This document shows positions 18,997-47,442 of a stretch of DNA of 64,000 nucleotides, one piece after another. The position numbers were made by a program, and so were the translations under genes. Under the pieces are notes generated by a model. That model made no database searches and had not been told where the DNA came from. It saw only the letters and a list, made by a program, of their open reading frames with translations. Within the stretch, counting starts at the first letter, position 1. Every line of letters starts with the position of its first letter. Origin of the DNA: the human T2T-CHM13v2.0 reference genome, Homo sapiens; assembly GCF_009914755.1 (NCBI RefSeq), contig NC_060947.1; one strand, written 5' to 3'.

Positions 18997-21900
18997 GAGA
19001 AATGTTTCACCAAAGAGTACTTATTTTTACTTTGTGCAATAAATGTTATTTTCAAATGTCTTGTATTTCATTAAAGGAAAATATTAATTTAACTTAAAAA
19101 ATTTATGACCAAACCTACTAATGCATTTTGTTTTGTTTTAACCAGATTGGAAAAGGCAGTCACTTTTGTTTCACTTTTTGGAAACCCATTTGTAATTTTG
19201 ATGTTCTACAAAACTGAACTATCAAAATTGGGATTAAGATAACATCTGAAGTGAGTTATATGTTCTTTTTAATACTAATTCATCCCATTCTCCTTTTCAC
19301 ATTAGTGTCTTTGTCATGTGCACTTAAATTTAGTTTCAATGCGAAAAAAGAGGCTTAGGAATTCAATTGGTACTCACATAGCTTTTTCCATCCAGGTAGG
19401 AGCATTTTATTCTGTGTAAAACCCACCACAATGTTCACCAGTATAAATGATCACTAATAGTAGTTATTGTGATAGTCACTCGACGGCAGCTTTAAAATCT
19501 GTGTTGCCTGAAATTAAAAGTGGCCACAGAGGGGAGTCTCTATATATAGTATTAGAATTCTGCCCCAGTCACAATTCTTGTGATTGTTCAACAATAAAAC
19601 AAATATTAATGTGGTATAGTTTGTTTAATGTCCTCCAAATTTTCTTTTAGAAATATTTTTATAGATATTTTGCTTTAAGCTATGACTTTTTAATATACTC
19701 ATCACACAACTATAGCTTTGCATCTACCAAACTTGAGACTGAAACACAGCTCTTTTTTCCAATAACGCTGTAGCCTAATGAAAAATTGGCACAGCATGAA
19801 TCTTTCAGGTTCCAGTTAATTGTTAACTTCTTGAAGAAACCACATTTGACCAACCAATCAAAATTAAACTTTCCATAGCTTCCTGCCCCTTCCCTTCTTA
19901 GCACTGATCATAACCTCCAACAATATGGAATTGGTGTAATTATTTCTATAAGGCCTTTATGCTTCATACAAAAAGGATTGTGTCAATTTTGCCTAATACC
20001 ATGTCACCAGCACCTAGCACAATGCCTGACACACGGAAGGCCCTCAGTTAAGGTTTATTCAATAAATTAATGATGAATATCAGCATGAATTATTTTCTTT
20101 ATTCCTCATTAAGTGTATTTTGTTAGAGACCTTGCTAACCTGTAGGTTCATGTGAGCTTTTCCTCAGAGAGTGCTATGGCTAATGGGCATTCATGTTACT
20201 GCCACTTCAATGGAAAGCAACCACACATAGTTATACTTTGAAAGTCTACCTCCACAACTTCACAATGATAATGTTGATTTTGAAAAACCTTTCCATAGCT
20301 ATAATTTTTATGGAAGAGGAGAAGAAATATCAAGCTGCTAGGCAATGTGTTCTTTCTTGCATCTGTATTTCTTATGATCATATGATTTTATATGACTGCC
20401 AGTTTACTCATTAACATCAAAAGTTGCTACCACAGATATTAGCCTATTGCATTTCTTTTGATTAAGTTATAAATTTTTGGCAAGGATGGCATTAGTGTAT
20501 AGATTTGAAAGAAAATATGAGCGTAATAAATAGATCTCTTCATTTCATTCTAGCAGTTTGTATTGGCAGGTGATTTTGTACTCATTCATGTTCTTTTTCT
20601 TCTGTAATAACATAATTAGTGTAATGAAGCATTGAGTTATCCCTTAAAGTAGAATATGAATGATGCCTAACTGTAAATAGGGCTCACATACCACTCAAAA
20701 TCATTATGAATAGATGTGAAGGCACATAATTCCACCTATCTTAATAAAAATATTAATTTAACTTACAAAATGTATGACCTCCATTAAAAAATCATTATAT
20801 CATGTTCTAAAGTTTGATGGAGATAATGCACCTTCCCTAATTCACTGGCTCTTCATTTTATTATTGTTATTTTATTGAATAATAACTACCCTGCAGAAAG
20901 AGAAGCCTCAAGGATGTTTTGCTGATGGGATCTGAATCAATATAATGGCTTTAAATGAATTGGACATGCTCATTTTACCCACATCTACTTCCCTGATTTT
21001 TCTGAACTTAAAAGTAAAAATGACCCAGGTATTTGATTATTTTATGTTCATTTCAAGACTTAAGAATGAAAAAAGGTCTGGCAACCAAGATGGCCAAATA
21101 GGAACAGCTCCAGTCTACAGCTCCCAGCCTGAGCAACGCAGAAGACAGGTGATTTCCTCATTTCCATCTGAGGTATCAGGTTAATCTCACTAGGGAGTGC
21201 CAGACAATGGGCGCAGGACAGTGGGTGCAGCGCACTGTGCGCGAGCCGAAGCACGGCGAGGCATTGCCTCACTCGGGAAGCCCAAGGGGTCAGGGAGTTC
21301 CTTTTCCTAGTCAAAGAAAGGGGTGACAGACGGCACCTGGAAAATCGGGTCACTCCCACCCCAATACTGCGCTTTTCCGACGGGCTTAAAAAACAGCGCA
21401 CCAGGAGATTATATCCCGCACCTGGCTCGGAGGGTCCTACGCCCACGGAGTCTTGCTGATTGCTAGGACAGCAGTCTGAGATAAAACTGCAAGGTGGCAG
21501 CGAGGCTGGGGGAGGGGCGACCGCCATTGCCCAGGCTTGCTTAGGTAAACAAAGCAGCCGGGAAGCTCGAACTGGGTGGAACCCACCACAGCTCAAGGAG
21601 GCCTGCCTGACTCTGTAGGCTCCACCCCTGGGGGCAGGGCACAGACAAACAAAAAGACAGCAGTAACCTCTGCAGACTTAAATGTCACTGTCTGACAGTT
21701 TTGGAGAGAGCAGTGGTTCTCCCAGCACGCAGCTGGAGATCTGAGAACGGGCAGACTGCCTCCTCAAGTGGGTCCCTGACACCTGACCCCCGAACAGCCT
21801 AACTGGGAGGCACCCCCAAGTAGGGGCAGACTGACACCTCACATGGCCGGGTACTCCTCTGAGACAAAACTTCCAGAGGAACAATCAGACAGCAGCATTC

Positions 21901-22110
21901 ACGGTTCACAAAAACCTGCTGTTCTGCAGCCACTGCTGCTGATAACCAGGCAAACAGGGTCTGGAGTGGACCTCCAGCAAACTCCAACAGACCTGCAGCT
22001 GAGGGTCCTGTCTGTTAGAAGGAAAACTAACAGACAGAAAGGACATCCACACCAAAAACCCATCTGTACATCACCATCATCAAAGACCAAAAGTAGATAA
22101 AACCACAAAG

Positions 22111-23125
22111 ATGGGAAAAAACAGAGCAGAAAAACTGGAAACTCTAAAAAGCAGAGCACCTCTCCTCATCCAAAGGAACGCAGTTCCTCACCAGCAACGG
22201 AACAAAGCTGGACGGAGAATGACCTTGACGAGTTGAGAGAAGAAGGCTTCAGACGATCAAACTACTCCGAGCTACAGGAGGAAATTCAAACCAAAGCAAA
22301 GAAGTTAAAAACTTTGAAAAAAATTTAGACGAATGTATAACTAGAATAACCAATACAGAGAAGTCCTTAAAGGAGCTGATGGAGCTGAAAGCCAAGGCTC
22401 AAGAACTACGTGAAGAATGCAGAAGCCTCAGGAGCCGATGCAATCAACTGGAAGAAAGGGTATCAGTGATGGAAGATGAAATGAATGAAATGAAGTGAGA
22501 AGGGAAGTTTAGAGAAAAAAGAATAAAGAGAAACGAACAAAGCCTCCAAGAAATATGGGACTATGTGAAAAGACCAAATCTACGTCTGATTGGTGTACCT
22601 GAAAGTGATGGGGAGAATGGAACCAAGTTGGAAAACACTCTGCAGGATATTATCCAGGAGAACTTCCCCAATCTAGCAAGGCAGGCCAACATTCAGATTC
22701 AGGAAATACAGAGAATGCCACAAAGATACTCCTCGAGAAAAGCAACTCCAAGACACATAATTGTCAGATTCACCAAAGTTGAAATGAAGGAAAAAATGTT
22801 AAGGGCAGCCAGAGAGAAAGGTCGGGTTACCCACAAAGGGAAGCCCATCAGACTAACAGCTGATCTCTCAGCAGAAACTCTACAAGCCAGAAGAGAGTGG
22901 GGGCCAATATTCAACATTCTTAAAGAAAAGAATTTTCAACCCAGAATTTCCTATCCAGCCAAACTAAGCTTCATAAGTGAAGGAGAAATAAAATCTTTTA
23001 CAGACAAGCAAATGCTGAGAGATTTTGTCACCACCAGGCCTGCCCTAAAAGAGCTCCTGGAGGAAGCACTAAACATGGAAAGGAACAACCGGTACCAGCC
23101 GCTGCAAAATCATGCCAAATTCTAA
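22111..23125 (+). pseudogene. L1 ORF1, disrupted
   Basis: ATG at 22111 is followed by a 1-nt deletion (ATGGGAAAAAACAG), with further lesions downstream. Only the C-terminal 186 aa (REKG, ARR, YPAKLS motifs) is open. Confidence 0.9.
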
Positions 23126-23188
23126 AGACCATCGAGGCTAGGAAGAAACTGCATCAACTAATGAGCAAAATAACCAGCTAACATCATA

Positions 23189-27009
<3,821 letters not shown>

Positions 27010-27779
27010 ACAATGAGAACACACATGGACACAGGAAGGGGAACATCACACTCTGGGGACTGTGGTGGGGTGGGGGGAGGGGGGAGGGATAGCATTAGTA
27101 GATATACCTAATGCTAAATGACGAGTTAATGGGTGCAGCACACCAGCATGGCACATGTATACATATGTAACTAACCTACACATTGTACACATGTACCCTA
27201 AAACTTAAAGTATAATAATAATCAAATAAAAATAATAAAAAAGAATGAAAAAAGTATGGTCTATAAAAATAGATTTGCATAAATACAATCTGCAGCTGGC
27301 TTCATTCTCTTTTTATAATGGGTTGGATCATAGCACCATGTTGAGCTAAAATCTATTGCTTTTGGTAATCCAGTCAAGAAAAAAGTAGTAACCAACAATT
27401 ACATATAAATGACATAATTTTATAAAGTGAAAATACTACATGGTAATAATTTGATAAATTACTTAAGAAAATTTAAGATTGTAAGGTTTGTCCAGATTTT
27501 TTCCTATAGTTTATTAAAAATAATGAACCAAAACAAAAAATTTCAATTACTATTGCATATAAAGAGCAATTATAATCTGTCAATGACTACAAGCCAGCCA
27601 TCTTAACATCAACTGAGAACAAAATTCTAAAAACAAATTATTCTTATAACTTTAAGTAAAAAAATTGAAGAACTAATTTAAGTGCATACTATTTGTCTGC
27701 TTAGAAAATGGTAAAATGATAGGAACTTCTTAAAGGCATTTCTATTCAAAATATCGTTGCAGACACTTAGATTAAATCA

Positions 27780-27940
27780 GGCTGGGCATGGTGACACATG
27801 CCTGTAGTCCCAGCTACTTGAGAGAAAGAGGTGAGAGGATGGCTTGAGCCCAGGAGATCAAGACTGCAGAGAGCTTTGATGGTGCCATGGCACTCCAGCC
27901 TTTCTCAAAAATAAATAAATAAATAAATAAAATAAAAACA
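27780..27940 (+). mobile_element. Alu monomer (FRAM/AluJ right arm) with (TAAA)n tail
   Basis: GGCTGGGCATGGTGACACATGCCTGTAGTCCCAGCTAC...GCACTCCAGCC. Confidence 0.8.
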
Positions 27941-29023
27941 ATTTTAAAAACCATGTTTATAAATATGTATTACAAGTTCATTATTTAAATGAGACTATAA
28001 AACCTAAAGATGTAAACATCACTTTAAAAGCCTTCCTACTTTTTTCTTGACTGATTTGCCAAAAGCTGCAGATTTTAGCTGAGGATGGTGCTACAATTCA
28101 GCTTCTTTTAAAGATGAAGGTGACTAGAGAGTGTACTTATGCTGAACCTGCAACTATTTCTTCACTATAAGAAATAATTTCTCCTTTTACAGGCCATTTA
28201 TTCCATATTGCAATTTATGACTTAAGTAAGTGACTTTTTTCTTTCCCTGTTCTTGTAAATTCTCAGAGTGATTGTCAGTCTTTCTCATTTGAATATCATG
28301 GAAACTCTACCATTTCAGTTTTAGTCCAGTGCAAATACAGTCTATTCAGTCCTTCTGATTTCAACTTTGCCTATTTACTATATAATAGTAAATAGGCAAA
28401 AAAAACTTTGCCTAAATACTATGTAATAGTATTTCAAGGTAATACTATTTAGAAAAATGTATTATAACCGTTTTTACTTGGTTTGTCTCCCACTCTTTAA
28501 TGAAGCCAAAGTTAAAAATCCAGTTAAAATAAATTTTTGCTGAGAGTTGTTTTGTTAAAAACATATATTATCAGAGTTGCATATTAGGAAAGTAATCAAT
28601 GTTAACTATTTTCATTACCAATCATGTCACTCTGAACATAATCTCAAAATAATCACATAATTCTATTGGCTAATTTTATAAAATTCACTTACTCATGAAA
28701 TCAACATACCCCTTTATTTTATCATTTGCTAATCATTTAGATTTTTAAGAGCAATTTCACATACTATCAAATTTTTGGCCACATATCAGATTAAACAAAG
28801 GCACAGAAAGATTAAATAAGTTACCCAAATATCATAGCTAAGAAGTGAAAGTTGGACTTAATTTTCTGTCTTTGGAACCCAAAGTTCTATGCTCCTTCAA
28901 ATGCAGCATACATGTGTCTTCCATTAATGACAATTAAAGTCAACTTATTCCATTACTGTATGCATTTTAACCTGAAGGTTTAGAGACATAGAGTTGGTTT
29001 CCTGACTCAAAAGTTTTAGCATT

Positions 29024-29310
29024 GGCCTGGTGTGGTGGGTGATACCTGTAAATCTCAGCCCTACTTTGGGAGGCCAAGATGGGAGGCTTGCTTGAGGCCA
29101 GGAGTTCAAGACCAGCCTAGGCAACATAACAAGACTCTGTAGCTAAAAAAAATTTTTTTTAAATCAACCAGGAATAGTGATTCATGCCTTTAGTCCTACC
29201 TACTAGGTAGGCTGAGGCGGGAGAATTGCTTGAGCCCAAGAATTCGAGGTTACAGTGAGCTATGATCATGCCACTGCACTCCAGCTTGGGTGACAGAGGG
29301 AGATACTACA
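29024..29310 (+). mobile_element. AluJ-like
   Basis: Diverged dimer with GAGGCCAGGAGTTCAAG and GTGAGCTATGATCATG diagnostics. Confidence 0.88.
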
Positions 29311-30653
29311 TTTTTTTTAAGTTTTATTATTATTCAGCTTCATATTTAATGGACCAAAGACTTTCTCTGGTTACTTAACTATATGGCTTAGAGAGAAAAG
29401 GCATTCTTTGGCAAATCTTAAATGATAGTTGAATACATTATTGCTTCAAAAAAGTCATTGCTTTCAAAACAACTAATACAATTAAACAGTGATAGCAATA
29501 TCAAAGGCAGTGCTATCTTGTGAATCACTTAGGTTGATCATAGTAAGCCACAGCTAAAAGCTATCTCCTATTATTAGGGTGCACCCATAAATGTATTCTT
29601 CCACCTTTTTTAGATTTTCCTTTATAAAAGTCATTTCTGTTATTGGATGCAGAGATACTCTTAACTGCTATTTCTTTGTTGTTAATTGTGGCTTTCTTTT
29701 ATCATTAAAAAGCGTCTTTCTTTTTCACTCTTATTTTTTTAACTTCAAATTTATTTTGTCAGATATCAAGATTGCTATTTGAAACCTCCCTAGTCGATTA
29801 TTATTCTGTCCAGAATTTTGTAAATTATGTGAAATTCACAAACTATAGTAAAATAATGATCTAGGAATATTGGTTGATGGGATTATCTCTGTACTACTTG
29901 TTTGAATAAAAAATTGGTATGTTTTTCTACAGAACAAAATTGCCATCTTTAAATTTTTCCTCTAGTCATGGAAGTGTTAATTGTATTTAAAAATCACTTT
30001 GTTCCACTGCTATTGTTGTGAGTAAATTAAATGATCAAGAAAGCAACTGTGAGATTTAACAGAGTTTTGCATAAACAACTTATGTTTGAGAGTAGTCCTG
30101 CCAGCATATTCCTGCCAGAATTTGTCCTTGTAACAGCAGACATTACATAACCATGCAGGGCTTCCAGACATCTAGGAATTAATACAGATTTTAGGACAAC
30201 GATTTCTTTGCCTTTCTTCCTTCTGTTCTCTTCTTCCTTCCTTCCTTTTCTTATTCCTCTTCTCCTTCATTTGTTCCTTTCTTCATGCCTGCCTTTCTGC
30301 CTGAGTTCCTTCTTTGAATATTTGCAGAGCCAAGTGTTCAGAAATGCATTCCAAAGTAGCTTTCTACTGCATTTAATTTTGTAGTCTATGACATTTCCTT
30401 CATTTTCTTTCACTTAAAGAGAGGCAATGAGACAATTGTCCTAACAGTTATGCATAAACTAGTGAGACACTGATCATCCGTGACTCTTCGGGCTTTTTGC
30501 TATCAGTAAGGCTCAGAATCAAAGGACTGGAAAAGAAGCAGGAGACTGGCTTCTTATCTTGGCACTGACAAAAATTAACATTAGGACGTTGAATAAGTCA
30601 TTTATCTCTTCTGGATCAGATTCCTTAACTATTAAAACAGAAAGTTAGAACTT

Positions 30654-30775
30654 TGCACGGTGGCATGTGCCTGTGGTCCCAGCTCCTCAGGAAGCTGAGA
30701 TGGGAGAATAGCTTGAGCCCAGGAGTTCCATACCAACCGAGGCAACATAGTGCAACCCCGTCTCTAAACAACAAA
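30654..30775 (+). mobile_element. FLAM-like Alu monomer
   Basis: GGTGGCATGTGCCTGTGGTCCCAGCT...GGCAACATAGTGCAACCCCGTCTCT. Confidence 0.75.
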
Positions 30776-33700: not shown

Positions 33701-35738
33701 ATCTATCCCTTTCTCTTTCCCATTCTCTTCGTTGAATTATTTAAAATCATTTCACATTGCTTCAGTATCTATTTCTAAAATTGTGGCTATATTACTGCAA
33801 AACCATGATGCAATTACCACCCCCCAAAATTTTAGGAATAATTCCTTAATTTAATACCCCAGTCCATATTCAAATTTTATTTATAGTCTCAGAAACATCT
33901 CATTTTTTTCTTTTTAAAATGTACTTTAAGACTGGATAAAACTGTAGAACAACATGTTGATATTTTAGCAAAATTGCTACAATTGGTCTATATTATAGAA
34001 CAAGTCTGTGTGATAGAAACTGTCTCCATGGCACTCAAGTGAGTGGAATGATCGTGACTGAATTCTATATATAGAATCTTTCAGTGAGAAGTAAAAACAG
34101 ATGTTGTATGAAGCATCTGATGTTTCATAAATGGGTTATTTTATCCAAAATTTCAGTGATCAATAGTTCATAGATTTTTTATATTAGGTAAGTTACTTCT
34201 CCCTCTTGAAAAACGTGAAGGAAAATATTCAAACATTCAAAGGGCTTTGAATTATTATGAAATGATTATGAAATGATGGTGCTTTGGATGGTGGTTATAA
34301 TAAAATGTGTGTAGTTGTAGCACCTTTCTTTTCATTCCTCACTCTCAAAACACATGCATACACACGTATACACAGACACACACATACACACACAGAGTCA
34401 TGAGCAAAAGGATTTGAAGATTTGTTAGTTCGAATTTTCTGACAGGTTTTATTTTATAAATTGAGTTGTACAGGAGGTACTCTGAGAGGGTAAGTTGAAG
34501 AATTCTCCACAAATCTAATTAGAAAATTTAAAAAGTGAAAATATATTACATGTCATTTGTGGTCTGATATTTTAGCTTTAATTACACTGAGGGGAGTTAT
34601 AAAATAGGCATATCAGTTTCGCTAAATATTGACACCATCTGATATAACGTTTGTAGAACTGGGACAGGAAACACTATTTTCAAAGTTGTCAAACTGAAGT
34701 ACTATTTTTCTCCATAAATAAACAAAATGGTAGAAGAGTACACAAAACCATAAACAGATTCTACCTGAGAATTAAACCACTAAAGTAGAAGCCAAGCTTT
34801 AGATAGCTACAAAACTGGCCATTACTTCTTATACTTCACTTTTCTGTAAAATATTCTAGGCAGAAGATTTTTTAAAATAAAATCACCAATAAACAATTTT
34901 GTTTAAAATTTTTATGAGTCTGTGTGGTCTCCTAACTCTTTAAGAATGAGAAATGTATTTAAGGATTCATTTAAGGAAGTAGATAAAGGCATGGTACAGA
35001 ATACCTACATATTAATTTGTGGGATGTGTAGACTGAGTTATGAGAATACTCAAGTTAAAAGTCACTTTCGCATTCCTTTCAAACAAAAGGCTTTGTCAGG
35101 TGAATGCTATGTTTTATATTTAATTAGCAATAACAAGTAAGATTTAATTGTAACCAAACTCAGCTATTTAGAAGTATCTTGTTTGTAAAACAGCGTAGAA
35201 TAATGTCAACAATTTAGCAAGAAAACCCAATTCACAGCATTTCAGAGCAAAAAGGGATAGAGGTCCTCTATTGCAACTTCTGTGTCATGGATGAAAACAG
35301 TGAGGCTCAAAAAGTTTGAGTGACACATCAAGAAGTGGTAAGAGTCAAGACTAGAACTCATGTCTCCTACTGCCCAGCCTAATGTCCTTTATGCTAATCA
35401 CACATATTTAACGGCTAGGGTGTTGAATGATACTAGAATGAATTATACATTATATAAATTATTCATTATGCAAATTAATTTTTGTTGTCTCAGTTTTCTG
35501 TATTCATGACATATTTGAATTTAACAAGATTCATCTGGTACTTCTAGCTATTTCTACATTTTATGAGTTGTATACATTTTATATCAATAAGTTATAAAAC
35601 AATAGCAGAAGTCACTTCTTTTTTCCAGATGAGACAGCAAAACCAGAAACTGACCCTTCAACTTTGAAGTAGCTTTTTGTTTGTTTCTTTCCCCTTTATA
35701 TAGGATGTCTTGAAGCCGAGAAGGAAGAGCTGTTGGAG

Positions 35739-35850
35739 AGACGAGGAGTTAAGAGTTCATTCGGCTGTCCAGATGTATCCAAGTACCCTGTGTTATTTGG
35801 CAATAAATACATCTGGGCAACTGACTGAACTTTTCACTTTTCATGACTCA
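35739..35850 (+). ncRNA. MIR1298: pre-miR-1298 (intronic miRNA of HTR2C)
   Basis: Mature 5p TTCATTCGGCTGTCCAGATGTA at 35756-35777 pairs with the 3p arm CATCTGGGCAACTGACTGAAC at 35810-35830. Known member of the HTR2C intronic miRNA cluster. Confidence 0.95.
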
Positions 35851-36279
35851 GCTGGAACCCTCCACAACCAGAAGAGCCTGTTATAAAGTGAAAAGTTTGT
35901 GATCTCTTAATCTAATGAAATGGGAAGTAGGAATTGCTTGTGGGTGAAGAGACACCATTGTAAATGTAAGTGGGAATGTATTTTAGTATGCAACTAAATT
36001 GATTTTTAAGTGTCTTGACAAAAGATAAAGAGGATTTGTTTTTCTAGCTTGCAAAATTAAAATCAAATTAACAGAAAATTTTGATCTGCTCCCATCAGTG
36101 ACACTTGTCGTGTACTTAACTCACCGGTATAAAATAACTATTTTATACTGTGATGGAGAGTAGCTGGCAAATGCTGGCAAATATTATTTGTATATTACAA
36201 TATTTAAAAGATATCTAACCTCAAGCTATGGCTATGTACATGGATCCATCTAATGTATTTACCCCAATCACTCTTTATC

Positions 36280-36485
36280 TCATGATGCAATTTCATTTTA
36301 TTCATAGCAATTATCACGATTTGAAATTATCCTACATCTTTGTTTAAATGTTTATTTTCTGTATCTCCAGCTAGAATGTAAGCTCCATTGGAGCAGGGGC
36401 CTGGTTTACCTTGTTTACTACTACATGCCCAGCATCTGGCATAGTGCCTGGCATGTAATAAGCAATCGATAAATATTTGAATATA
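36280..36485 (+). mobile_element. L2 3' end
   Basis: CTAGAATGTAAGCTCCATTGGAGCAGGG...CATAGTGCCTGGCATGTAATAAGCAATCGATAAATATTTG. Confidence 0.8.
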
Positions 36486-37590
36486 TGAAACTACTATTAT
36501 ACAGCTTTTGGTCCTGCAGATCGGTTGGAGTTGGTCTCCAACACAGATATTTAGCATATGGTTTGCTCCATTAGCTCTGCTCTTTGAAAACCTTCAGTTT
36601 GTTGTGCTATGTGCATACTAACACTGAGATAATTCCCAGATAGTTCTGCTACCACCTATGGAGAAAGCAGTTTCAAATTGCTGGGCATTCTGCCCACTAA
36701 GGCAAATTCTCTCCATGTCTGTTACTACCATCATAGAGTGATTTGCAATAGCTACTTTAAGTCTATCAATTGGGAAGTGTATGTTTTTAAAGTATTATTT
36801 TATGTAAATGGAATAGGTCTAGCTGTGAAAAACATAATTTTATATGCTGTAGATTTTGAGTTAACTGTTGTGTGAATTCGCACATAATTTAACAATAATC
36901 ACGCTCATGGAACATGTCAAACACAAGCAGAGGTATTTAGTAAATACAAATGAGGAGAAAAAAATTTTTTTTTCCATTTGAATTCCAAGCATAGGAGGAA
37001 CAGGTAAATCTATTTAAATAACCACTTAACATTATCTTGGAGGAGAGGGAATAAAAGTAATGAGCCTAGACTTGCATTCAAATTGAATAATCACTGGTGG
37101 AAGAGTAGTCTTTAATTTCATTGATGATAATAACTGAAAAACTTTCTATCAAAATAATAAAAATTATCTGATTTGACTATAATTAGCAAAGGTGAGTTTT
37201 TAGTATGACAAATGTATGATTTATTAGAAAATCGCTAGAGTACATTTGAAGTTGAAAGGAAAACTTCCTACAATATTCATTAGTCCTAAGGATAATTTTT
37301 GAATTAAATGAGCTCCCCCAAAATTATTGTAAATCTGTGCCACATTAATATAATCTTCCCAGGACTAATCTGAACATTTATGGCTAATTCATTTTTGATT
37401 TAGACATCTGCTAAAAGCTCACTGGGTATAATAACTAGAGGGATAATATTTGAATTATGAGTCATAATTTCTGAACACTGAAAATTGATAAAAATCAAAC
37501 TTCTATATGTATTATTATTTATTCAATTTTTAAATGCTTTGTTATAAAAAGTGAGACAGAAGTGATCTAGTTGACTATATTCTACAATTT

Positions 37591-37878
37591 CTTTTTTTTT
37601 TGAGACAGGGTCTGTTGCCCTAGCTGGAGTAGAATGATGTGATCAGGGCTCACTGCAGCCTCGACCACCTGAGTTCAAGGGATCCTCCCACCTCAGCCTC
37701 TCAAGTAGCTAGGACCAGAGGCACACGCCACCACATCTGGCTAATTTTTTGTATTTTTTGTAGACATGGGGTTTTGCCATTTTGTCCAGGCTGGTCTTGA
37801 ACTCCTGAGCTCAAGCAATCCACCCACTCCGGCCTCCCAAAGTGCTGGGATTATAGGCGTGAGCCATCGCACATGGTC
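37591..37878 (-). mobile_element. AluJ-like with 13-bp TSD
   Basis: TSD TATTCTACAATTT at 37578-37590 and 37879-37891. Confidence 0.92.
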
Positions 37879-38091
37879 TATTCTACAATTTAAAAAAATT
37901 TAGTGTGAAATTTAGTCTTTCAGTTTGATAGAAAATATGCTGCATCATTATAATGTGCTAACGGAATTTCCAGAAATCTAGTGTAAACTATACCTTTTCA
38001 TGGGTGAATCTAGACTCTCCAATTTTTGTTAAAACATGAGTAGAAATGCTGGCATTTTTTTTTAAGACTCATCAATATTATCTTCAACCAG

Positions 38092-38182
38092 GTCTGGGAA
38101 AAAAAGAATAAAAAGTAGTGTGAGAGCAGAAAACGTGATTGAAACACGACCAATCTTTCTTCAGTGCCAAAGGGTGGAAAAG
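38092..38182 (+). other. HTR2C: Probable alternative non-coding 5'-UTR cassette exon of HTR2C (91 nt)
   Basis: Acceptor tcttcaaccag| and donor AAAAG|gtaatg flank 91 nt of non-repetitive, ATG-free sequence. This fits my recollection of an HTR2C variant with an extra 5'-UTR exon of about this size (not verified). Confidence 0.65.
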
Positions 38183-38539
38183 GTAATGGTAAAAATGAAT
38201 TATAAATGGTTAGCTTTAGAAGTTGCAAGGCAAGCGTTTTCAATAAAGTTGCAAGCTTCTATCCTCTCCAAGCACAATTTGGGCAAAACCACAGCTCTTC
38301 CTTTATTCTTAGATAGTATCTTTTGACTTCACACCTTAAATCTCCTACCTTCCCATCAATCAGCCAATTACTTTGTACCCAGGACTTGGCCAAGGATTGT
38401 GGATGTTACATGGAAAGTACATCTATATGGCTCTTCTGCTCAAAAATTTGCCTTTAGTATTAATACAACACCTTTAAAAAGCCTTGTTCGTGCCAGCCTT
38501 TGTACCCCACAGTTTTTTGTTTTCTTTGATTTTGTTAAT

Positions 38540-38740
38540 ATTTTTTGAGACAGGGTCTCACTGTGTCACCCAGACTGAAGTGCAGTGGTGCGATCACGGC
38601 TCACTGCTGCTGCCACCTGCTGACCTCAAGCCATCCTCCCACCTCAGTCCCCAAGCCCACCCCACAGTAGCTGGGACTACAGGCCCGCACCATCACATGG
38701 GGCTGATTTTTTTTGCAGAGATGGCGTCTTGCTCTGTCCC
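38540..38740 (-). mobile_element. Partial AluJ-like
   Basis: GAGACAGGGTCTCACTGTGTCACCCAG...GTAGCTGGGACTACAGG. Confidence 0.8.
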
Positions 38741-39399
38741 ATAGTTTTTAACTTATTTTTTAAAATTATTTTTGCTTCCAAGGTGATTATTGATGATGAC
38801 TTTTAAGTATTTCTGTGAGTGATACGGATTCTGATAGTTTGCAATTTATTTCCAAATTTCCAGTGGAGATTCGATTTTGGTTCAGTTGTTTTGGAGTGTT
38901 CACACTATTTTGGATGACATATGCTGTATGACACATGGCATATAGCCATATAAGCATAGATTTCATAGGCATGAATTAAATACAATACTCATGGTATGGA
39001 TTCATACTTAATTAAATTTTCACATTAGTTGAGGTTATTCTGCAATATCTTGTGTAAAATTGTACTATTGAAAATTATGTGAAAACTAATGTTTCTCCCC
39101 CATTTGTCTTAGCAACTGTAGTTACTGTTATTGATGTCTGAAGATTTTACAGTGCTTTAGAGAAGGCATGAAAAGATCTGTGATTTACACTGTAGAAAGG
39201 ATTGAGAGATTGGTCTGAGTGTGTATTTAGTGACTAGTGATCCTGATCTTATTTCTATGATTTAATCTGTGATTTTCTCTTCATACTTGAGACAGCTAAT
39301 TGGTTTTAAGTTAATCAATCTTTTTCTGGACACGAAATTATAAATATGTATGACTACACAAAGTAACACAGAAACACACAAATGTTATATAAGTTGGTT

Positions 39400-39592
39400 G
39401 TAATTATAAATTATATTAATTTTATATAATTATATATATAATATAATATAAATTATATTAATATTAATATTAATATTTAATATATATAATATAATAATAT
39501 AATATATAATAATAATATAAAATAAATAAATAAAATAATATAATAATATTAATAATATAATTATAATTATAAATTATAACACTTATTAAATT
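39400..39592. repeat. Nearly pure AT low-complexity tract
   Basis: About 190 nt of TAA/TAT-type degenerate repeats. Confidence 0.9.
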
Positions 39593-41239
39593 ATCAAACC
39601 TACTTTCAAGGCAAATATTATAAAATCTCATTAAAAATTAGTCAATTATTCCGTCAATTATCTCACAAGTGATTTTAAAAAAATTTTACAAAACACAATC
39701 CTTCACAAATTTGAAAACTTGAATTTATAAGCATTCTTTTGTGTTCATGCAACTTTAAAAGTTCCATTACACAGATCAGAAAGTTCCATATATGCATATC
39801 AGAAAGTTTCATTAGAGTTGTTTCGCTATGTTTTTCAGTTTCTGTTATTGATTGATCTTATCCAAGACAAGAAGTTTTGCATCACCTTCCCTTTTAGTAG
39901 AATTACTCACAGAACATTTCTTATTGCAAAATATCATCATCACAGTGGCCTGGCCATTTGGGGAAACATGTAAGATAACATAATTTATGTTACATAATTC
40001 ATATAATTTATTCCCATCACACCATGTTCCGAAACTCTTACCACCAGTTCACAGGTATTTTCTATCATGTCTACTCAGTGTTCATGCAAATTTTAACAGC
40101 ATGAGGAGACATGATTTTGCCTACAAGTCATTTTTGTTAATAAATTGGAAATCTATATACATAATATTTTTTGTGATTATTACTCATTCTTCTCAATAAA
40201 ATTGGAACTTAGAAAAATAAATATTTGATGTTTAATTTTTCTGCTTATATTTCTCAGGAATATACATGTAAAAAAGCATAAGGAAGCTGGCTAATTTTTA
40301 AAGGAATATAATATTTTGAGTAACAGTAATGGAATTCATCCATAGCTAAAAATGTGGCTAATAAAGTGCTTCATGAGATGATTATTGTATCAGCTTGTTT
40401 TGTTATACTCTATTGGAGCACAGCATATTTCACTCTATCTTTGAACCTTTAAAAATTATACTAATATTTGGATACATAAAAATAAATATTGAAAATCATT
40501 TTAATACTTTTAGCATAAGGAAAAAGGAAAAAGTTTGATACTTATTGAGGGCTAAGAAGCAGGATGGGACCTTTTGGTTTCCCTTACCATTTTTTCTGTC
40601 ACTTATTTTCAGACCTCCCAGAGAAAGAGATGTCTGTGTTGTCTGGTAAAATTTATGGGACAGTATTGGCCTGACTAATGGTCAGGGTGATATAGCTCTC
40701 TCTCTCTCACACAGAATATTTTGAGTTCCTAGATATTGGAAGGCCATATTTTATGTATTACGGTAGTAAGGGGATGATTTGGAGATTGATTTTTGTGTAG
40801 GTAGCACTGATAGAACTGATAAATGAGAGCTAAGGGATGAAGAAGGGAGAAAATATTAACTATGTATCTTGAGTGACAAGGATAGTGCTATTAAATGAGA
40901 TGGAAAACACAGGGAGATGTGATTTCTTCTGGTTAAATTTTACTTCCAAATTTCTAGAAGGAGCTAGAAGCACACTAAAGAAAGCTTATCAAGACAGATT
41001 TTCAGGATCATATTTCTTTTTCTTTTTTTTTTTAATTATACTTTAAGTTTTAGGGTACATGTGCACATTGTGCAGGTTAGTTACATATGTATACATGTGC
41101 CATGCTGGTGTGCTGCACCCACTAACTCGTCATCGAGCATTAGGTATATCTCCCAATGCTATCCCTCCCCCCTCCCCCGACCCCACCACAGTCCCCAGAG
41201 TGTGATATTCCCCTTCCTGTGTCCATGTGATCTCATTGT

Positions 41240-45062
<3,823 letters not shown>

Positions 45063-45125
45063 TATGATGTTAGCTGGTTATTTTGCTCATTAGTTGATGC
45101 AGTTTCTTCCTAGTCTTGATGGTCT

Positions 45126-46103
45126 TTACAATTTGGCATGATTTTGCAATGGCTGGTACCACTTGTTCCTTTCCATGTTTAGCCCTTCCTTCAGGAGCTC
45201 TTTTAGGGCAGGCCTGATGGTGACAAAGTCTCTCAGCATTTGCTTGCCTGTAAAGTATTTTATTTGTCCTTCACTTATGAAGCTTAATTTGGCTGGATAT
45301 GAAATTCTGGGTTGAAAATTCCTTTCTTTAAGAATGTTGAATATTGGTCCCCATTCTCTTCTGGCTTGTGGAGTTTCTGCCGAGAGATCAGCTGTTAGTT
45401 TGATGGGCTTCCCTTTGAGAGTAACCCGACCTTTCTCTCTGGCTGCCTTTAACATTTTTTCCTTCATTTCAACTTTGGTGAATCTGACAAGTGTGTGTCT
45501 TAGAGTTGCTCTTCTCGAGGAGTATCTTTGTGGCGTTCTCTGTATTTCCTGAATCTGAATGTTGGCCTGCCTTGCTAGATTGGGGAAGTTCTCCTGGATA
45601 ATATCCTGCAGAGTGTTTTCCAACTTGGTTCCATTCTCCCTGTCACTTTCAGGTACACCAGTCAGAGGTAGATTTGGTCTTTTCACATAGTCCCATATTT
45701 CTTGGAGGCTTTGTTGGTTTCTTTTTATTCTTTTTTCTCTAAACTTCCCTTCTCGCTTCATTTCATTCATTTCATCTTCCATCACTGATACCCTTTCTTC
45801 CAGTTGATCGCATCGGCTCCTGAGGCTTCTGCATTCTTCACGTAGTTCTTGAGCCTTGGCTTTCAGCTCCATCAGCTCCTTTAAGGACTTCTCTGTATTG
45901 GTTATTCTAGTTATACATTCTTCTAAATTTTTTTCAAAGTTTTCATCTTCTTTGCCTTTGGTTTGAATTTCCTCCCGTAGCTCAGAGTAATTTGATCGTC
46001 TGGAGCCTTCTTCTCTCAGCTCGTCAAAGTCATTCTCCATCCAGCTTTCTTCCATTGCTGGTGAGGAACTGCGTTCCTTTGGAGGAGGAGAGGCGCTCTG
46101 CAT
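45126..46103 (-). CDS. L1 ORF1p, N-terminally shortened but open (325 aa)
   Basis: The native ATG (46139-46141) is frameshifted. An internal ATG at 46103 opens MQSASPPPKERSSSP... through to QNHAKL, keeping the coiled-coil, RRM and CTD motifs. Expression is unknown. Confidence 0.5.
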   Translation of the reverse strand: MQSASPPPKERSSSPAMEESWMENDFDELREEGSRRSNYSELREEIQTKGKEDENFEKNLEECITRITNTEKSLKELMELKAKAQELREECRSLRSRCDQLEERVSVMEDEMNEMKREGKFREKRIKRNQQSLQEIWDYVKRPNLPLTGVPESDRENGTKLENTLQDIIQENFPNLARQANIQIQEIQRTPQRYSSRRATLRHTLVRFTKVEMKEKMLKAAREKGRVTLKGKPIKLTADLSAETPQARREWGPIFNILKERNFQPRISYPAKLSFISEGQIKYFTGKQMLRDFVTIRPALKELLKEGLNMERNKWYQPLQNHAKL

Positions 46104-47363
46104 TTTAGAGTTTCCAGTTTTTCTACTCTGTTTTTTCCCATCTTTGTGGTTTTATCTACTTTTGGTCTTTGATGATGGTGATGTACAGATGGGTTTTTGG
46201 TGTGGATGTCCTTTCTGTTTGTTAGTTTTCCTTCTAACAGACAGGACCCTCAGCTGCAGGTCTTTTGGAGTACCCGGCCGTGTGAGGTGTCAGTCTGCCC
46301 CTGCTAGGGGGTGCCTCCCAGTTAGGCTGCTCAGGGGTCAGGGGTCAGGAACCCACTTGAGGAGGCAGTCTGCCCGTTCTCAGATCTCCAGCTGCATGCT
46401 GGGAGAACCACTGCTATCTTCAATGCTGTCAGACAGGGACATTTAAGTCTGCAGAGGTTACTGCTGTCTTTTTGTTTGTCTGTGCCCTGCCCCCAGAGGT
46501 GGAGCCTACAGAGGCAGGCAGGCCTCCTTGAGCTGTGGTGGGTTCCACCCAGTTCGAGCTTCCGGGCTGCTTTGTTTACCTAAGCAAGCCTGGGCAATGG
46601 CGGGCGCCCCTCCCCCAGCCTCACTGCCACCTTGCAGTTTGATCTCAGACTGCTGTGCTAGCAATCAGTGAGACTCCGTGGGCATAGGACCCTCGGAACC
46701 AGGTGCAGGATATAATCTCCTGGTGCGCCGTTTTTTAAGCCTGTTGGAAAAGCGCAGTATTGGGGTGGGAGTGACCCGATTTTCCAGGTGCCGTCTGTCA
46801 CCCCTTTGTTTGACTAGGAAAGGGAACTCCCTGACCCCTTGCACTTCCCAAGTGAGGCAATGCCTCGCCCTGCTTCGGCTCGCGCACGGTGCGTGCACCC
46901 ACTGACCTGCGCCCACTGTCTGGCACTCCCTAGTGAGATGAAGCCGGTATCTCAGGTGGAAATGCAGAAATCACCCTTCTTCTGCGTCGCTCACGCTGGG
47001 AGCTGTAGACCGGAGCTGTTCCTCTTCGGCCATCTTGAGAAGTTTTTGAAGAATATATTCTTAATTTCTTTTTCAAAACATTGATTTGAAGCCATGTCTA
47101 CTCCAAGAGGGGGAAATTTGGTATAAACCATGTATAAATAAAACATATACAGAAAATTTTTAAAAACTGCGATGATAAATAATTGAAAAATCTGCTCTCT
47201 TTGCCATATTTTATCACTTACACAGTATAACATGCTTACCTGTTTGCTGAATTAATAACTGTTTCTTATCACCATTAAGTGCATTTAAGTTTATTTAATT
47301 GGTTACTATGCAAGTTATTTCGATGTTTAACTAATTTTCTCTTTCTTCTTTTTCTCTCCCCAG

Positions 47364-47442
47364 AAAGGATGATATGATGAACCTAGCCTGTTAATTTCGT
47401 CTTCTCAATTTTAAACTTTGGTTGCTTAAGACTGAAGCAATC
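47364..47442 (+). other. HTR2C: 5'-UTR part of the HTR2C start-codon exon
   Basis: Long polypyrimidine tract ending cag at 47361-47363, then 79 nt up to the ATG at 47443. Confidence 0.9.

What the first reader, a model, noticed from the sequence alone, without database searches (positions are those of the whole stretch)
21076..47037. Two inverted L1s of different subfamilies share inactivating mutations: probable gene conversion
Seen in sequence: both copies have the same 1-nt deletion after the ORF1 ATG (ATGGGAAAAAACAG; 22111 and 46141) and the same premature ORF2 TAA after SRRQEIT (24211-24213 and 44038-44040). They also share residues that differ from the consensus I recall: MMGSNS (MTGSNS), HQEDL (HQADL), HKEMK (HNEMK), NESKD (NENKD), ITASEI (ITGSEI), NSFD (NSFY), PKLGR (PKPGR), KEDVK (KEEVK), APNLL (AQNLL), FFTILEKNT (FFTELEKTT), IQHIG (IQDIG). 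Yet they differ at subfamily markers (128-bp 5'UTR segment present vs absent; 3'UTR AATGACGAGTTAAT vs GATGACGAGTTAGT) and have unrelated flanks. Established: L1 mobilises in cis, so a source with dead ORF1 and ORF2 is unlikely to have produced both. Inference: independent insertions were later homogenised in patches by intrachromosomal non-allelic gene conversion between inverted repeats ~13.8 kb apart.
Basis: partly seen in the sequence, partly recalled or inferred. Interest (0 to 1): 0.8.

Follow-up and report, generated by a model that had tools for sequence, protein, structure and literature searches.

The report
Neighbouring inverted L1s exchanged sequence patches
Two dead L1 retrotransposons that landed separately, head to head, 13.8 kb apart in an HTR2C intron share a stop codon and about fifteen other rare variants in their middle third, most likely because one copied patches of sequence onto the other, a known process seen here in a clear example.

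Summary
Copy A (+, 21076-27240) and copy B (-, 41023-47063) have different target-site duplications and unrelated flanks. They differ by the 128-nt 5'UTR segment and by 24 subfamily-type sites.

They nevertheless share 16 alignment columns (15 events with the stop counted) that 0-2 of 14-69 other L1 copies carry. All but one lie in A 23193-26141. The ORF2 TAA context occurs 3 times in the genome against 3600 for the usual codon. One three-variant 24-mer occurs only in A and B.

- Site patterns are lopsided: AB|YO 24, AY|BO 1.
- Shared and discordant sites form blocks (runs test p=0.0003).
- A+B form a clade in the central tracts (SH-aLRT 100), which the 3' 1.1 kb rejects (AU p=0.007).

Best reading: old, patchy non-allelic gene conversion between the inverted neighbours, probably from A to B (about 0.7).

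Caveats:
- The ORF1 1-nt loss is a recurrent homopolymer slip (41 copies, 1.1%) and cannot be assigned to conversion.
- A is not B's best genome-wide hit by raw similarity.
- No ape orthologues could be examined.

This is a new instance of a known process, of modest interest.

The parts
21076..27240 (+). L1 copy A, full length, older type with the 128-nt 5'UTR segment. Flanked by the 14-nt duplication AAGAATGAAAAAAG (21062-21075, 27241-27254).
41023..47063 (-). L1 copy B, full length, younger type lacking the 128-nt segment. Probable 11-nt duplication GAAAAAGAAAT (47074-47064, 41022-41012). About 26 extra nt at the 5' junction before L1 homology starts near 47037.
21853..21980 (+). 5'UTR segment present in A and absent from B. 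Same boundaries as the deletion in L066, L068 and L071-L075. Corresponds to the published 129-bp ZNF93-site deletion.
   Evidence: PMC7110667 passages
22111..22124 (+). ORF1 start of A with a 3-G run (1 nt short). The frame runs into a stop after 41 codons.
   Evidence: 41 genomic copies
46128..46141 (-). ORF1 start of B with the same 1-nt loss.
24211..24213 (+). ORF2 TAA stop in A (after SRRQEIT).
44038..44040 (-). Same ORF2 TAA stop in B.
24549..25710 (+). Largest shared block in A (partner B 43700-42540). Holds 10 rare shared columns (24549, 24585, 24713, 24781, 25205, 25264, 25304, 25697, 25698, 25710) and no A-old/B-young site between 24497 and 26058.
42540..43700 (-). Partner of the largest shared block, in B.
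23979..24274 (+). Second shared block in A (partner B 44272-43977) holding 23979, 24023 and the TAA. Bounded by discordant sites 23910 and 24336.
23193..23608 (+). Third candidate block in A (partner B about 45058-44643). Holds the shared pair 23193/23194, and B's out-of-order old-type allele at 23608. Bounded by 23137 and 23670.
26141..26141 (+). Isolated rare shared site (partner B 42109), between discordant sites 26059 and 26470.
27255..41011 (.). 13.8-kb spacer between the inverted copies. Holds MIR1298 (35739-35850) and an alternative HTR2C exon (38092-38182) according to the supplied annotation.
   Evidence: annotation given with the finding

Best explanation
A and B are independent insertions from successive stages of the primate L1 lineage. 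A is the older type that keeps the 128-nt ZNF93-site segment. B is an early member of the type that lost it.

After B landed in inverted orientation 13.8 kb from A, homologous repair between the two copies on the same X chromosome transferred sequence non-reciprocally. This happened either in several short patches or in one long heteroduplex repaired patchily. The patches cover parts of A 23193-26141, at least 4 blocks of about 0.3 to 1.2-1.5 kb.

The transfer copied one copy's private variants, including the ORF2 TAA, into the other. The direction was probably A to B.

The exchange was old. Since then each copy has gained about 1-1.5% private changes in the exchanged blocks. At 96% identity further exchange is now unlikely.

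- Shown: independent insertion, different types, excess and clustering of shared rare variants, tree incongruence, uniqueness of the combination in this genome.
- Inferred: the mechanism (gene conversion in place), its direction and its date.
For: 1. **Independent insertion.** Distinct duplications and flanks. Only the L1 bodies are inverted repeats in 20000-48000.
2. **Different types.** There are 24 sites where A matches the 4 copies with the segment and B matches the 7 without it, plus the 128-nt block.
3. **Shared rare variants.**
   - 16 columns are shared by A and B and carried by at most 6% of the panel rows covering the column.
   - Genome-wide exact counts of the 24-27-mers that carry them:
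     - TAA context: 3, against 3600 for the usual codon.
     - 23193/4: 25.
     - 24023: 39.
     - 24549: 33.
     - 25264: 22.
     - 26141: 12.
     - 23979: 101.
     - 25697/8+25710: 2, which are A and B only.
   - By position, only three other copies carry two or three of these k-mers. None of those three is among the 40 best hits of A's central block.
4. **Control.** Exclusive pair-sharing is 13 for A-B against 0-4 for 132 of 135 other pairs.
5. **Reticulation.** AB|YO 24 columns (22 events) against AY|BO 1, binomial p=5.7e-6.
6. **Blocks.**
   - 12 runs among 46 ordered sites, permutation p=2.6e-4.
   - 14 of 15 rare events fall in one 2.95-kb span, p=0.004.
7. **Local nearest neighbours.** A and B are each other's closest among 42-43 copies only in 23700-24330 and 24500-25420. 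With A 24500-25320 as query, B is the best genomic hit (1377 bits, next 1341; 40 of 5368 candidates scored).
8. **Trees.** Central tracts (42 rows) give A+B with SH-aLRT 100. For the 3' 1.1 kb (17 rows) the AU test rejects A+B, p=0.007.
9. **Direction.**
   - B alone, among 22 copies with at least 7 young-type alleles, has old-type alleles at the early-changing sites 23120 and 23608.
   - Without the shared variants B's private load (about 1.1%) fits the young copies (0.79-1.25%).
   - A's load with them (1.41%) fits the older copies (1.28-2.55%).
10. **Proximity.** The only two copies in 3.1 Gb with this combination lie 13.8 kb apart. A review states that conversion between Alu copies is elevated within <10 kb and on sex chromosomes (PMC6598467, passage).
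Against: - **Raw similarity, B to A.** With B's central block as query, A is not among the 40 scored hits (1393-1375 bits). A-B scored 1377, so many near-consensus young copies are as close to B as A is.
- **Short patches.** Shared and discordant sites alternate at short range. At least 4 patches are needed, more if 21362, 22365 and 22861 count. One implied boundary lies within 17 nt (23120 against 23137).
- **No drop in divergence in one block.** In the candidate block 23193-23608, A and B still differ at about 16 sites in 416 nt.
- **Unequal private changes.** In 24506-25212, A has 16 private changes and B has 2-3. No simple one-event model predicts this.
- **L078.** An older copy on contig 1 (L078, 93% identical to A) shares three of the rare events: 23193/4, 24023 and 25264. 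This hints at some inherited component.
- **5' flank.** The AU test does not reject an A+B clade there (p=0.447).
- **Post hoc choices.** The tract limits and tree segments were chosen after seeing the sites.
- **Panel.** It is made of search hits to the window's own sequence, not a random sample. Only 14-16 rows cover the 3' 1.4 kb.
- **Missing data.** No orthologous ape sequence or population data were available.
Confidence: 0.72

Rival explanations
1. Both copies descend from one rare, already defective source lineage that carried the TAA and the other shared variants and was mobilised in trans twice. No exchange took place at this locus.
For: - L078 shares three of the rare events.
- Two other copies share two k-mers each: C4:165.81 Mb has 23979+24023, and C4:95.53 Mb has 23979+26141.
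- Defective L1 variants can be numerous: a frame-breaking 4-bp ORF2 deletion is present in 836 copies against 7182 without it.
- The 5' flank does not reject an A+B clade.
Against: - B shares 24 derived sites and the 128-nt deletion with the young type, which A lacks. A common source would need all of these in parallel.
- The shared variants are absent from the 5' 2.1 kb (one exception) and from the 3' 1.1 kb. The 3' end rejects A+B, p=0.007.
- No third copy has the combination. The three-variant k-mer occurs only in A and B, and the TAA in one unrelated older copy.
- Two offspring of one source landing 13.8 kb apart in 3.1 Gb would be an unexplained coincidence.
- Two-k-mer overlaps are about what list sizes predict: by my arithmetic from the counts, about 1 is expected for 101 x 39 in about 3600.
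Confidence: 0.1
2. B was born a chimera. During its reverse transcription the enzyme switched repeatedly between a young-type L1 RNA and an RNA containing A (for example the HTR2C intron), so the mosaic dates from insertion.
For: The mosaic is old and the private load of the shared blocks is close to that of the rest of B. A lies in sense orientation inside an HTR2C intron (annotation supplied with the finding).
Against: - It needs at least 8 template switches in one event.
- It gives no reason why the chimera should insert next to A.
- HTR2C is not known to me as germline-expressed (recalled, not tested).
- Nothing in the sequence calls for it.
Confidence: 0.03
3. Parallel mutation at hot spots, with no shared history beyond the L1 family.
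For: Some shared lesions are recurrent:
- ORF1 G-run loss: 41 copies.
- ORF2 A-run loss at 23393: 6 of 20 other copies displayed.
- 23979 G: 101 copies.
Against: - Fifteen rare events, most of them not at CpG, are shared. Each is at 0.05-1% (one at 2.8%) of about 3600 copies.
- Control pairs share 0-4.
- The events are spatially clustered.
Confidence: 0.01
4. Assembly artefact: reads of one copy were used to polish the other.
For: None from the sequence. It could not be tested here.
Against: - Private differences of both copies lie every 10-100 nt between the shared sites.
- The copies are only 96% identical.
- The assembly is a telomere-to-telomere one (stated in the supplied annotation).
Confidence: 0.01

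Closest known systems
Non-allelic (ectopic) gene conversion between dispersed transposable elements, best documented for Alu
   Same: - Independent insertions of different subfamilies become partial hybrids.
- Transfer is partial rather than whole-element.
- An old inactive element can overwrite a younger one (PMC8230782, passages).
- The rate is raised for close neighbours (<10 kb) and on sex chromosomes (PMC6598467, passage citing Aleshin and Zhi 2010).
   Different: - Here the partners are 6-kb L1s 13.8 kb apart in inverted orientation.
- The evidence comes from one genome only (shared private variants), not from orthologous loci.
- The transferred material includes a nonsense codon.
Gene conversion involving L1 elements (Burton et al. 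1991, mouse; Tremblay et al. 2000, cell culture; Sen et al. 2007, locus NCLI34)
   Same: L1 copies serve as donors or acceptors in homologous repair. An intrachromosomal conversion into an L1 locus has been proposed for the human genome (PMC1920257, passages). The 1991 and 2000 papers were seen only as reference-list entries.
   Different: Those cases are break repair in culture or single patches from a distant donor. Here there are several patches between two identified neighbours, with a probable direction and an approximate date.
L1PA3 129-bp 5'UTR deletion (escape from ZNF93)
   Same: B lacks a 128-nt block of the 5'UTR at the same boundaries as 7 other fetched copies, and A keeps it. The paper states that a 129-bp deletion fixed in L1PA3 and later lineages and is shared by all great apes but not gibbon (PMC7110667, passages).
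   Different: I did not run RepeatMasker or compare with published consensus sequences. The names L1PA3 and L1PA4 for A and B are my inference from relative order in the panel. The one-nucleotide difference (128 against 129) is alignment placement.
Arm-to-arm conversion in X- and Y-linked inverted repeats and palindromes
   Same: Intrachromosomal exchange between inverted arms separated by a spacer on a sex chromosome (recalled knowledge, no paper read here).
   Different: Those arms are duplications kept above 99% identical by ongoing conversion. Here the arms are unrelated insertions, only patches were exchanged, and they have since diverged to 96%.

Membership tests
Non-allelic gene conversion between repeats | The partners are separate loci of independent origin, not a duplication. 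| tested here: met
   Different target-site duplications and unrelated flanks. The inverted similarity is confined to the L1 bodies.
Non-allelic gene conversion between repeats | Partners share derived variants that other family members lack, beyond chance. | tested here: met
   16 rare shared columns. Exclusive pair-sharing is 13 against 0-4 in controls. Genome-wide k-mer counts range from 2 to 101 among about 3600 copies.
Non-allelic gene conversion between repeats | Phylogenetic incongruence along the sequence, with the shared signal in contiguous tracts. | tested here: met
   AB|YO 24 against AY|BO 1. Runs test p=2.6e-4. A+B clade in the centre (SH-aLRT 100) and rejected at the 3' end (AU p=0.007). 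The 5' flank is inconclusive, p=0.447.
Non-allelic gene conversion between repeats | Reduced divergence inside tracts relative to outside. | tested here: inconclusive
   - 1.90% and 2.17% in 23700-24330 and 24500-25420, against 3.3-7.1% in most other windows.
- 1.40% in 26200-26700, where no tract is claimed.
- About 3.8% in the candidate tract 23193-23608.
Non-allelic gene conversion between repeats | Orthologous locus in an outgroup shows the unconverted state. | not testable with these tools
   Only the window's own genome is held. No other primate assemblies are available.
L1 (LINE-1), primate L1PA lineage | Full-length element with 5'UTR, ORF1, ORF2, 3'UTR, an A-rich tail and a target-site duplication. 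| tested here: met
   92-96% identity over about 6.1 kb to 15 other full-length genomic copies. ORF1 and ORF2 peptides were recognised. Tail and duplications confirmed.
129-bp-deleted L1PA3 and younger type (copy B) | Absence of the ZNF93-site block of the 5'UTR at the family's boundaries. | tested here: met
   B's gap is A 21853-21980. L066, L068 and L071-L075 break at the same A positions, 782/906-908. Published description in PMC7110667. The subfamily name itself was not tested with RepeatMasker.

The most novel reading that the evidence does not exclude
A resident, already broken L1 overwrote parts of a newly arrived, ZNF93-escaping neighbour soon after it landed, handing it a stop codon. 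If this is general, distance-dependent conversion from fossil copies would be a route by which fresh L1 insertions near old ones are disabled. It would also blur subfamily dating. B's dense cluster of 9 private substitutions in about 175 nt just 5' of the exchanged region (A coordinates 22929-23102) might then be a scar of error-prone repair synthesis.
Probability: 0.15. Interest if true: 0.5.

Novelty: new member of a known kind. Interest (0 to 1): 0.3.

Why it matters
It is a clean, datable example in which two L1s of different ages exchanged sequence in place.

- Divergence-from-consensus ages and subfamily calls for L1s with close neighbours can be off.
- A shared inactivating mutation does not by itself prove a common defective source.

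The pair also forms a 6-kb inverted repeat around MIR1298 and an alternative HTR2C exon. It could in principle mediate inversion of the spacer or pair in the pre-mRNA, but neither was tested. As biology it confirms a known process rather than revealing a new one.

Tried and rejected
1. **Reciprocal best hits.** The test passed from A to B in the central block and failed from B to A. The reason is that B has few private changes there, so many near-consensus copies tie with A. I therefore relied on shared derived variants and trees rather than similarity.
2. **Larger panel.** Smaller requests in between succeeded. As a result the two contig-4 copies that share two k-mers each were not examined. 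The 3' 1.4 kb rests on 14-16 rows.
3. **ORF1 frameshift as a conversion tract.**
   - The deletion lies in a stretch of at most 118 nt (22034-22151) where A and B differ only at 22127.
   - B's old-type G at 22126 is also in L074, an early deleted-type copy.
   - So it is not evidence of transfer.
   - The assignment is left open.
4. **An older third L1 as donor of the central block.** Rejected. A and B carry the young allele at nearly all of 132 old-versus-young sites.
5. **B's 4-bp ORF2 gap (A 25423-25426) as a tract boundary.** Rejected as a marker, because the same gap is in 836 copies.
6. **Direction from private-mutation densities.** No simple model fits. A has 16 and B 2-3 private changes in 24506-25212. 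A's derived load is higher in the centre than in its flanks.
8. **Literature on this locus.**
   - A search for HTR2C, LINE-1, miR-1298 and inverted repeat found 2 papers, neither about this pair (listing only).
   - A phrase search for L1 gene conversion found one paper, by a reference-list title.
9. **Technical failures.** timed out, one search used a wrong MAFFT option and one search had a search term that was too short. Each was repeated correctly.

Full report
**What is there**

The window is an intron region of HTR2C on the human X chromosome, according to the annotation supplied with the finding.

- Copy A is a full-length L1 on the + strand, 21076-27240. It is bracketed by a perfect 14-nt duplication, AAGAATGAAAAAAG, at 21062 and 27241.
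- Copy B is a full-length L1 on the - strand, about 41023-47063. It has a probable 11-nt duplication, GAAAAAGAAAT, at 47074 and 41022 on the minus strand. About 26 extra nucleotides sit at its 5' junction.
- The flanks are unrelated. In 20000-48000 the only long inverted repeats are the eight collinear pieces of the two L1 bodies, 92-100% complementary.
- The spacer is 13,774 nt.
- Aligned, the copies (6168 and 6029 nt as I cut them) show 227 mismatches and 163 gap columns. Of the gap columns, 128 are one block of the 5'UTR present in A (21853-21980) and absent from B.

**Check of the observation**

  - the shortened ORF1 start at 22111 and 46141;
  - the TAA after SRRQEIT at 24211-24213 and 44040-44038;
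  - all eleven peptide variants, in both copies;
  - the two 3'UTR strings.
- Read from the ATG, both ORF1 frames stop after 41 codons.
- Both copies have further lesions of their own. A has five 1- or 2-nt losses in ORF2 and one 1-nt loss in ORF1. B has a 4-nt loss in ORF2.
- The two copies also share a 1-nt loss in an ORF2 A-run at 23393. Six of 20 other copies displayed have the same loss.

**Are the shared variants really unusual?**

The window's own genome could be searched. I collected 15 other full-length copies and 58 fragments of about 3 kb. All of them were hits to window sequence, so this is not a random sample.

- In the first 3.1-kb comparison I left out 4 of 29 loci whose hits were partial or rearranged (L007, L021, L027, L030).
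- In the full alignment (74 rows, later 75), 16 columns have A=B with an allele carried by at most 6% of the rows covering the column. Those columns were covered by 14-69 rows. A has 83 private sites and B has 70.

Exact genome-wide counts of 24-27-mers carrying the variants:

| Variant | Count |
|---|---|
| TAA context | 3 (usual codon context: 3600) |
| 23193/4 | 25 |
| 24023 | 39 |
| 24549 | 33 |
| 25264 | 22 |
| 25697/8 with 25710 | 2 (A and B only) |
| 26141 | 12 |
| 23979 | 101 |

- The third copy with the TAA (L064, X:65.1 Mb) is an older-type copy, 94% identical to A. It shares none of the other rare variants.
- Two more copies have a T at that site with a neighbouring change.
- So each variant alone recurs at roughly 0.05-3% of copies, as random mutation among thousands of copies would give. 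The combination is found only here.
- As a control, among 136 pairs of 17 full-length copies, exclusive sharing is 13 columns for A-B and 0-4 for 132 others. The three remaining pairs are among the three oldest copies, which share old-subfamily alleles.

**The ORF1 deletion is different**

- The 24-mer with three G occurs 41 times and the 25-mer with four G 3692 times, so the deletion is in 1.1% of copies.
- The 30 carriers I fetched are 87.7-95.6% identical to A, so they belong to many subfamilies. It is a recurrent slip.
- A and B are nearly identical for at most 118 nt around it. B's old-type base 12 nt downstream is also found in another early deleted-type copy, L074.
- Whether this lesion was transferred or arose twice cannot be decided.

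**Mosaic structure**

I grouped the 7 fetched copies that lack the 128-nt block as Y and the 4 that keep it as O. I then classified columns by the majority state of each group.

- The patterns are AB|YO 24 columns, AO|BY 24 and AY|BO 1.
- On a tree ((A,O),(B,Y)) the two discordant patterns should be equally common. The observed 22 events against 1 gives p=5.7e-6.
- Along the element the two kinds of site form 12 runs among 46 sites (permutation p=2.6e-4). Fourteen of 15 rare shared events lie within one 2.95-kb span (p=0.004).
- Between 24497 and 26058 there are 15 AB|YO columns and no AO|BY column.
- Between 23911 and 24335 there are five AB|YO columns, including the TAA, and no AO|BY column.
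- Smaller islands hold 23193/4 and 26141.
- Among 42-43 copies, A and B are mutual nearest neighbours only in 23700-24330 (1.90%) and 24500-25420 (2.17%). Elsewhere A ranks 2nd to 11th for B and B ranks 2nd to 34th for A.
- Maximum-likelihood trees:
  - Central tracts, 42 rows: A+B together with SH-aLRT 100.
  - The 3' 1.1 kb, 17 rows: the A+B clade is rejected (AU p=0.007).
  - The ORF1 region, 45 rows: the clade is not recovered but also not rejected (p=0.447).
  - The segments were chosen after I had seen the sites.
- With A 26200-27200 as query, B is not among the 40 best genomic hits.

**Which explanation**

- B shares with the young type 24 derived sites and the 128-nt deletion, all of which A lacks. 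A shares with B about 15 rare events that the young type lacks.
- No single tree holds both sets, so one copy is a mosaic.
- A common defective source cannot give this pattern without recombination. It also leaves unexplained why the only two carriers in 3.1 Gb are 13.8 kb apart.
- Exchange in place explains both facts.
- Conversion between transposable elements is documented, with higher rates for close neighbours and on sex chromosomes (PMC6598467, passage). Partial conversions, and old elements overwriting younger ones, are also documented (PMC8230782, passages).
- I put patchy non-allelic gene conversion at about 0.72.

**Direction and date (inferred)**

- When sites are ordered by how early they changed in the lineage, the panel haplotypes are nearly nested. 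B is the only one of 22 copies with at least 7 young alleles that has old alleles at 23120 and 23608, two early-changing sites. The second lies in the same interval as the shared pair 23193/4. That points to transfer from A to B.
- Loads of rare substitutions agree weakly:
  - A with the shared variants has 1.41%, within the older copies' range of 1.28-2.55%.
  - B without them has about 1.1%, within the young copies' range of 0.79-1.25%.
- In the central-tract tree the end branches are 0.015 (A) and 0.0095 (B) changes per site. With a recalled neutral rate near 1e-9 per site per year this is roughly 10-15 million years, so the exchange would predate the human-chimpanzee split.
- B's type arose in the great-ape ancestor, since the deletion is shared by all great apes and absent in gibbon (PMC7110667, passages).
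- The exchange was probably early, when the copies were still about 99% alike.

**What does not fit**

1. With B's central block as query, 40 other copies score 1393-1375 bits. A is not listed, and A-B scored 1377. By plain similarity A is therefore not B's best match.
2. In 24506-25212, A has 16 private changes and B has 2-3. After a single transfer both should gain equally.
3. The candidate patch 23193-23608 shows no drop in divergence, with about 16 differences in 416 nt.
4. The patches are many and some are short.
5. L078 on contig 1 has old alleles at 65 of 98 old-versus-young sites. It carries three of the rare events but none of A's private variants and two of B's. From the k-mer frequencies I estimate well under one such copy by chance among the seven variants tested, so some inherited component, or an unknown link, remains possible.
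6. Two contig-4 copies with two k-mers each could not be fetched. Such two-fold overlaps are about what the list sizes predict.

**Novelty**

- L1 conversion is in print. Burton et al. 1991 and Tremblay et al. 2000 were seen only as reference entries. Sen et al. 2007 was seen in passages.
- I found no paper on this particular pair.
- This is a new, well-resolved instance of a known process.

Noticed in passing
window 42821-42824 (B); A 25423-25426 holds the four bases: B lacks 4 nt of ORF2, which breaks the frame. The same junction 24-mer occurs 836 times in the genome against 7182 for the undeleted 28-mer (10.4%), on both the T and the C background of a neighbouring site. This is either a strong slippage hot spot at ACAGACAAACAG (in replication or reverse transcription) or a large trans-mobilised defective lineage.
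   Followed up: partly
window about 45149-45322 (B; A coordinates 22929-23102): There is a dense cluster of 9 substitutions private to B in about 175 nt of ORF1, of mixed types. In 22600-23190 B is more than 5% from every one of 46 copies. The cause is unknown. A scar of repair synthesis is one idea.
   Followed up: no
L078 (G000 contig 1, 180630900-180637700): An older-type L1, 93% identical to A, shares three of the rare A/B events (23193/4, 24023, 25264) but not the TAA or the others.
   Followed up: partly
genome contigs 13, 14, 21, 22 (short-arm positions listed): Seven L1 copies in acrocentric short arms carry both the ORF1 1-nt loss and the 23979 G variant, at the expected spacing of 1864-1867 nt. 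They are about 89.5% identical to A. This looks like one old copy spread by segmental duplication.
   Followed up: no
window 21031-21532: The RefSeq 'enhancer' feature in the supplied annotation is essentially the first 450 nt of copy A's 5'UTR.
   Followed up: no
window 27255-47477: The inverted L1 pair brackets MIR1298 (35739-35850) and an alternative HTR2C exon (38092-38182). B's 5' end lies about 300 nt from the HTR2C exon at 47364, pointing away from it, so an L1 antisense promoter would point into the exon. Possible effects on pre-mRNA pairing, back-splicing, or inversion of the spacer were not tested.
   Followed up: no
window 23393 (A) and about 44858 (B): At the shared 1-nt loss in the ORF2 A-run, the adjacent base is C in A and G in B. 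Both are absent from 69 other rows, so the same site was hit twice in different ways.
   Followed up: no
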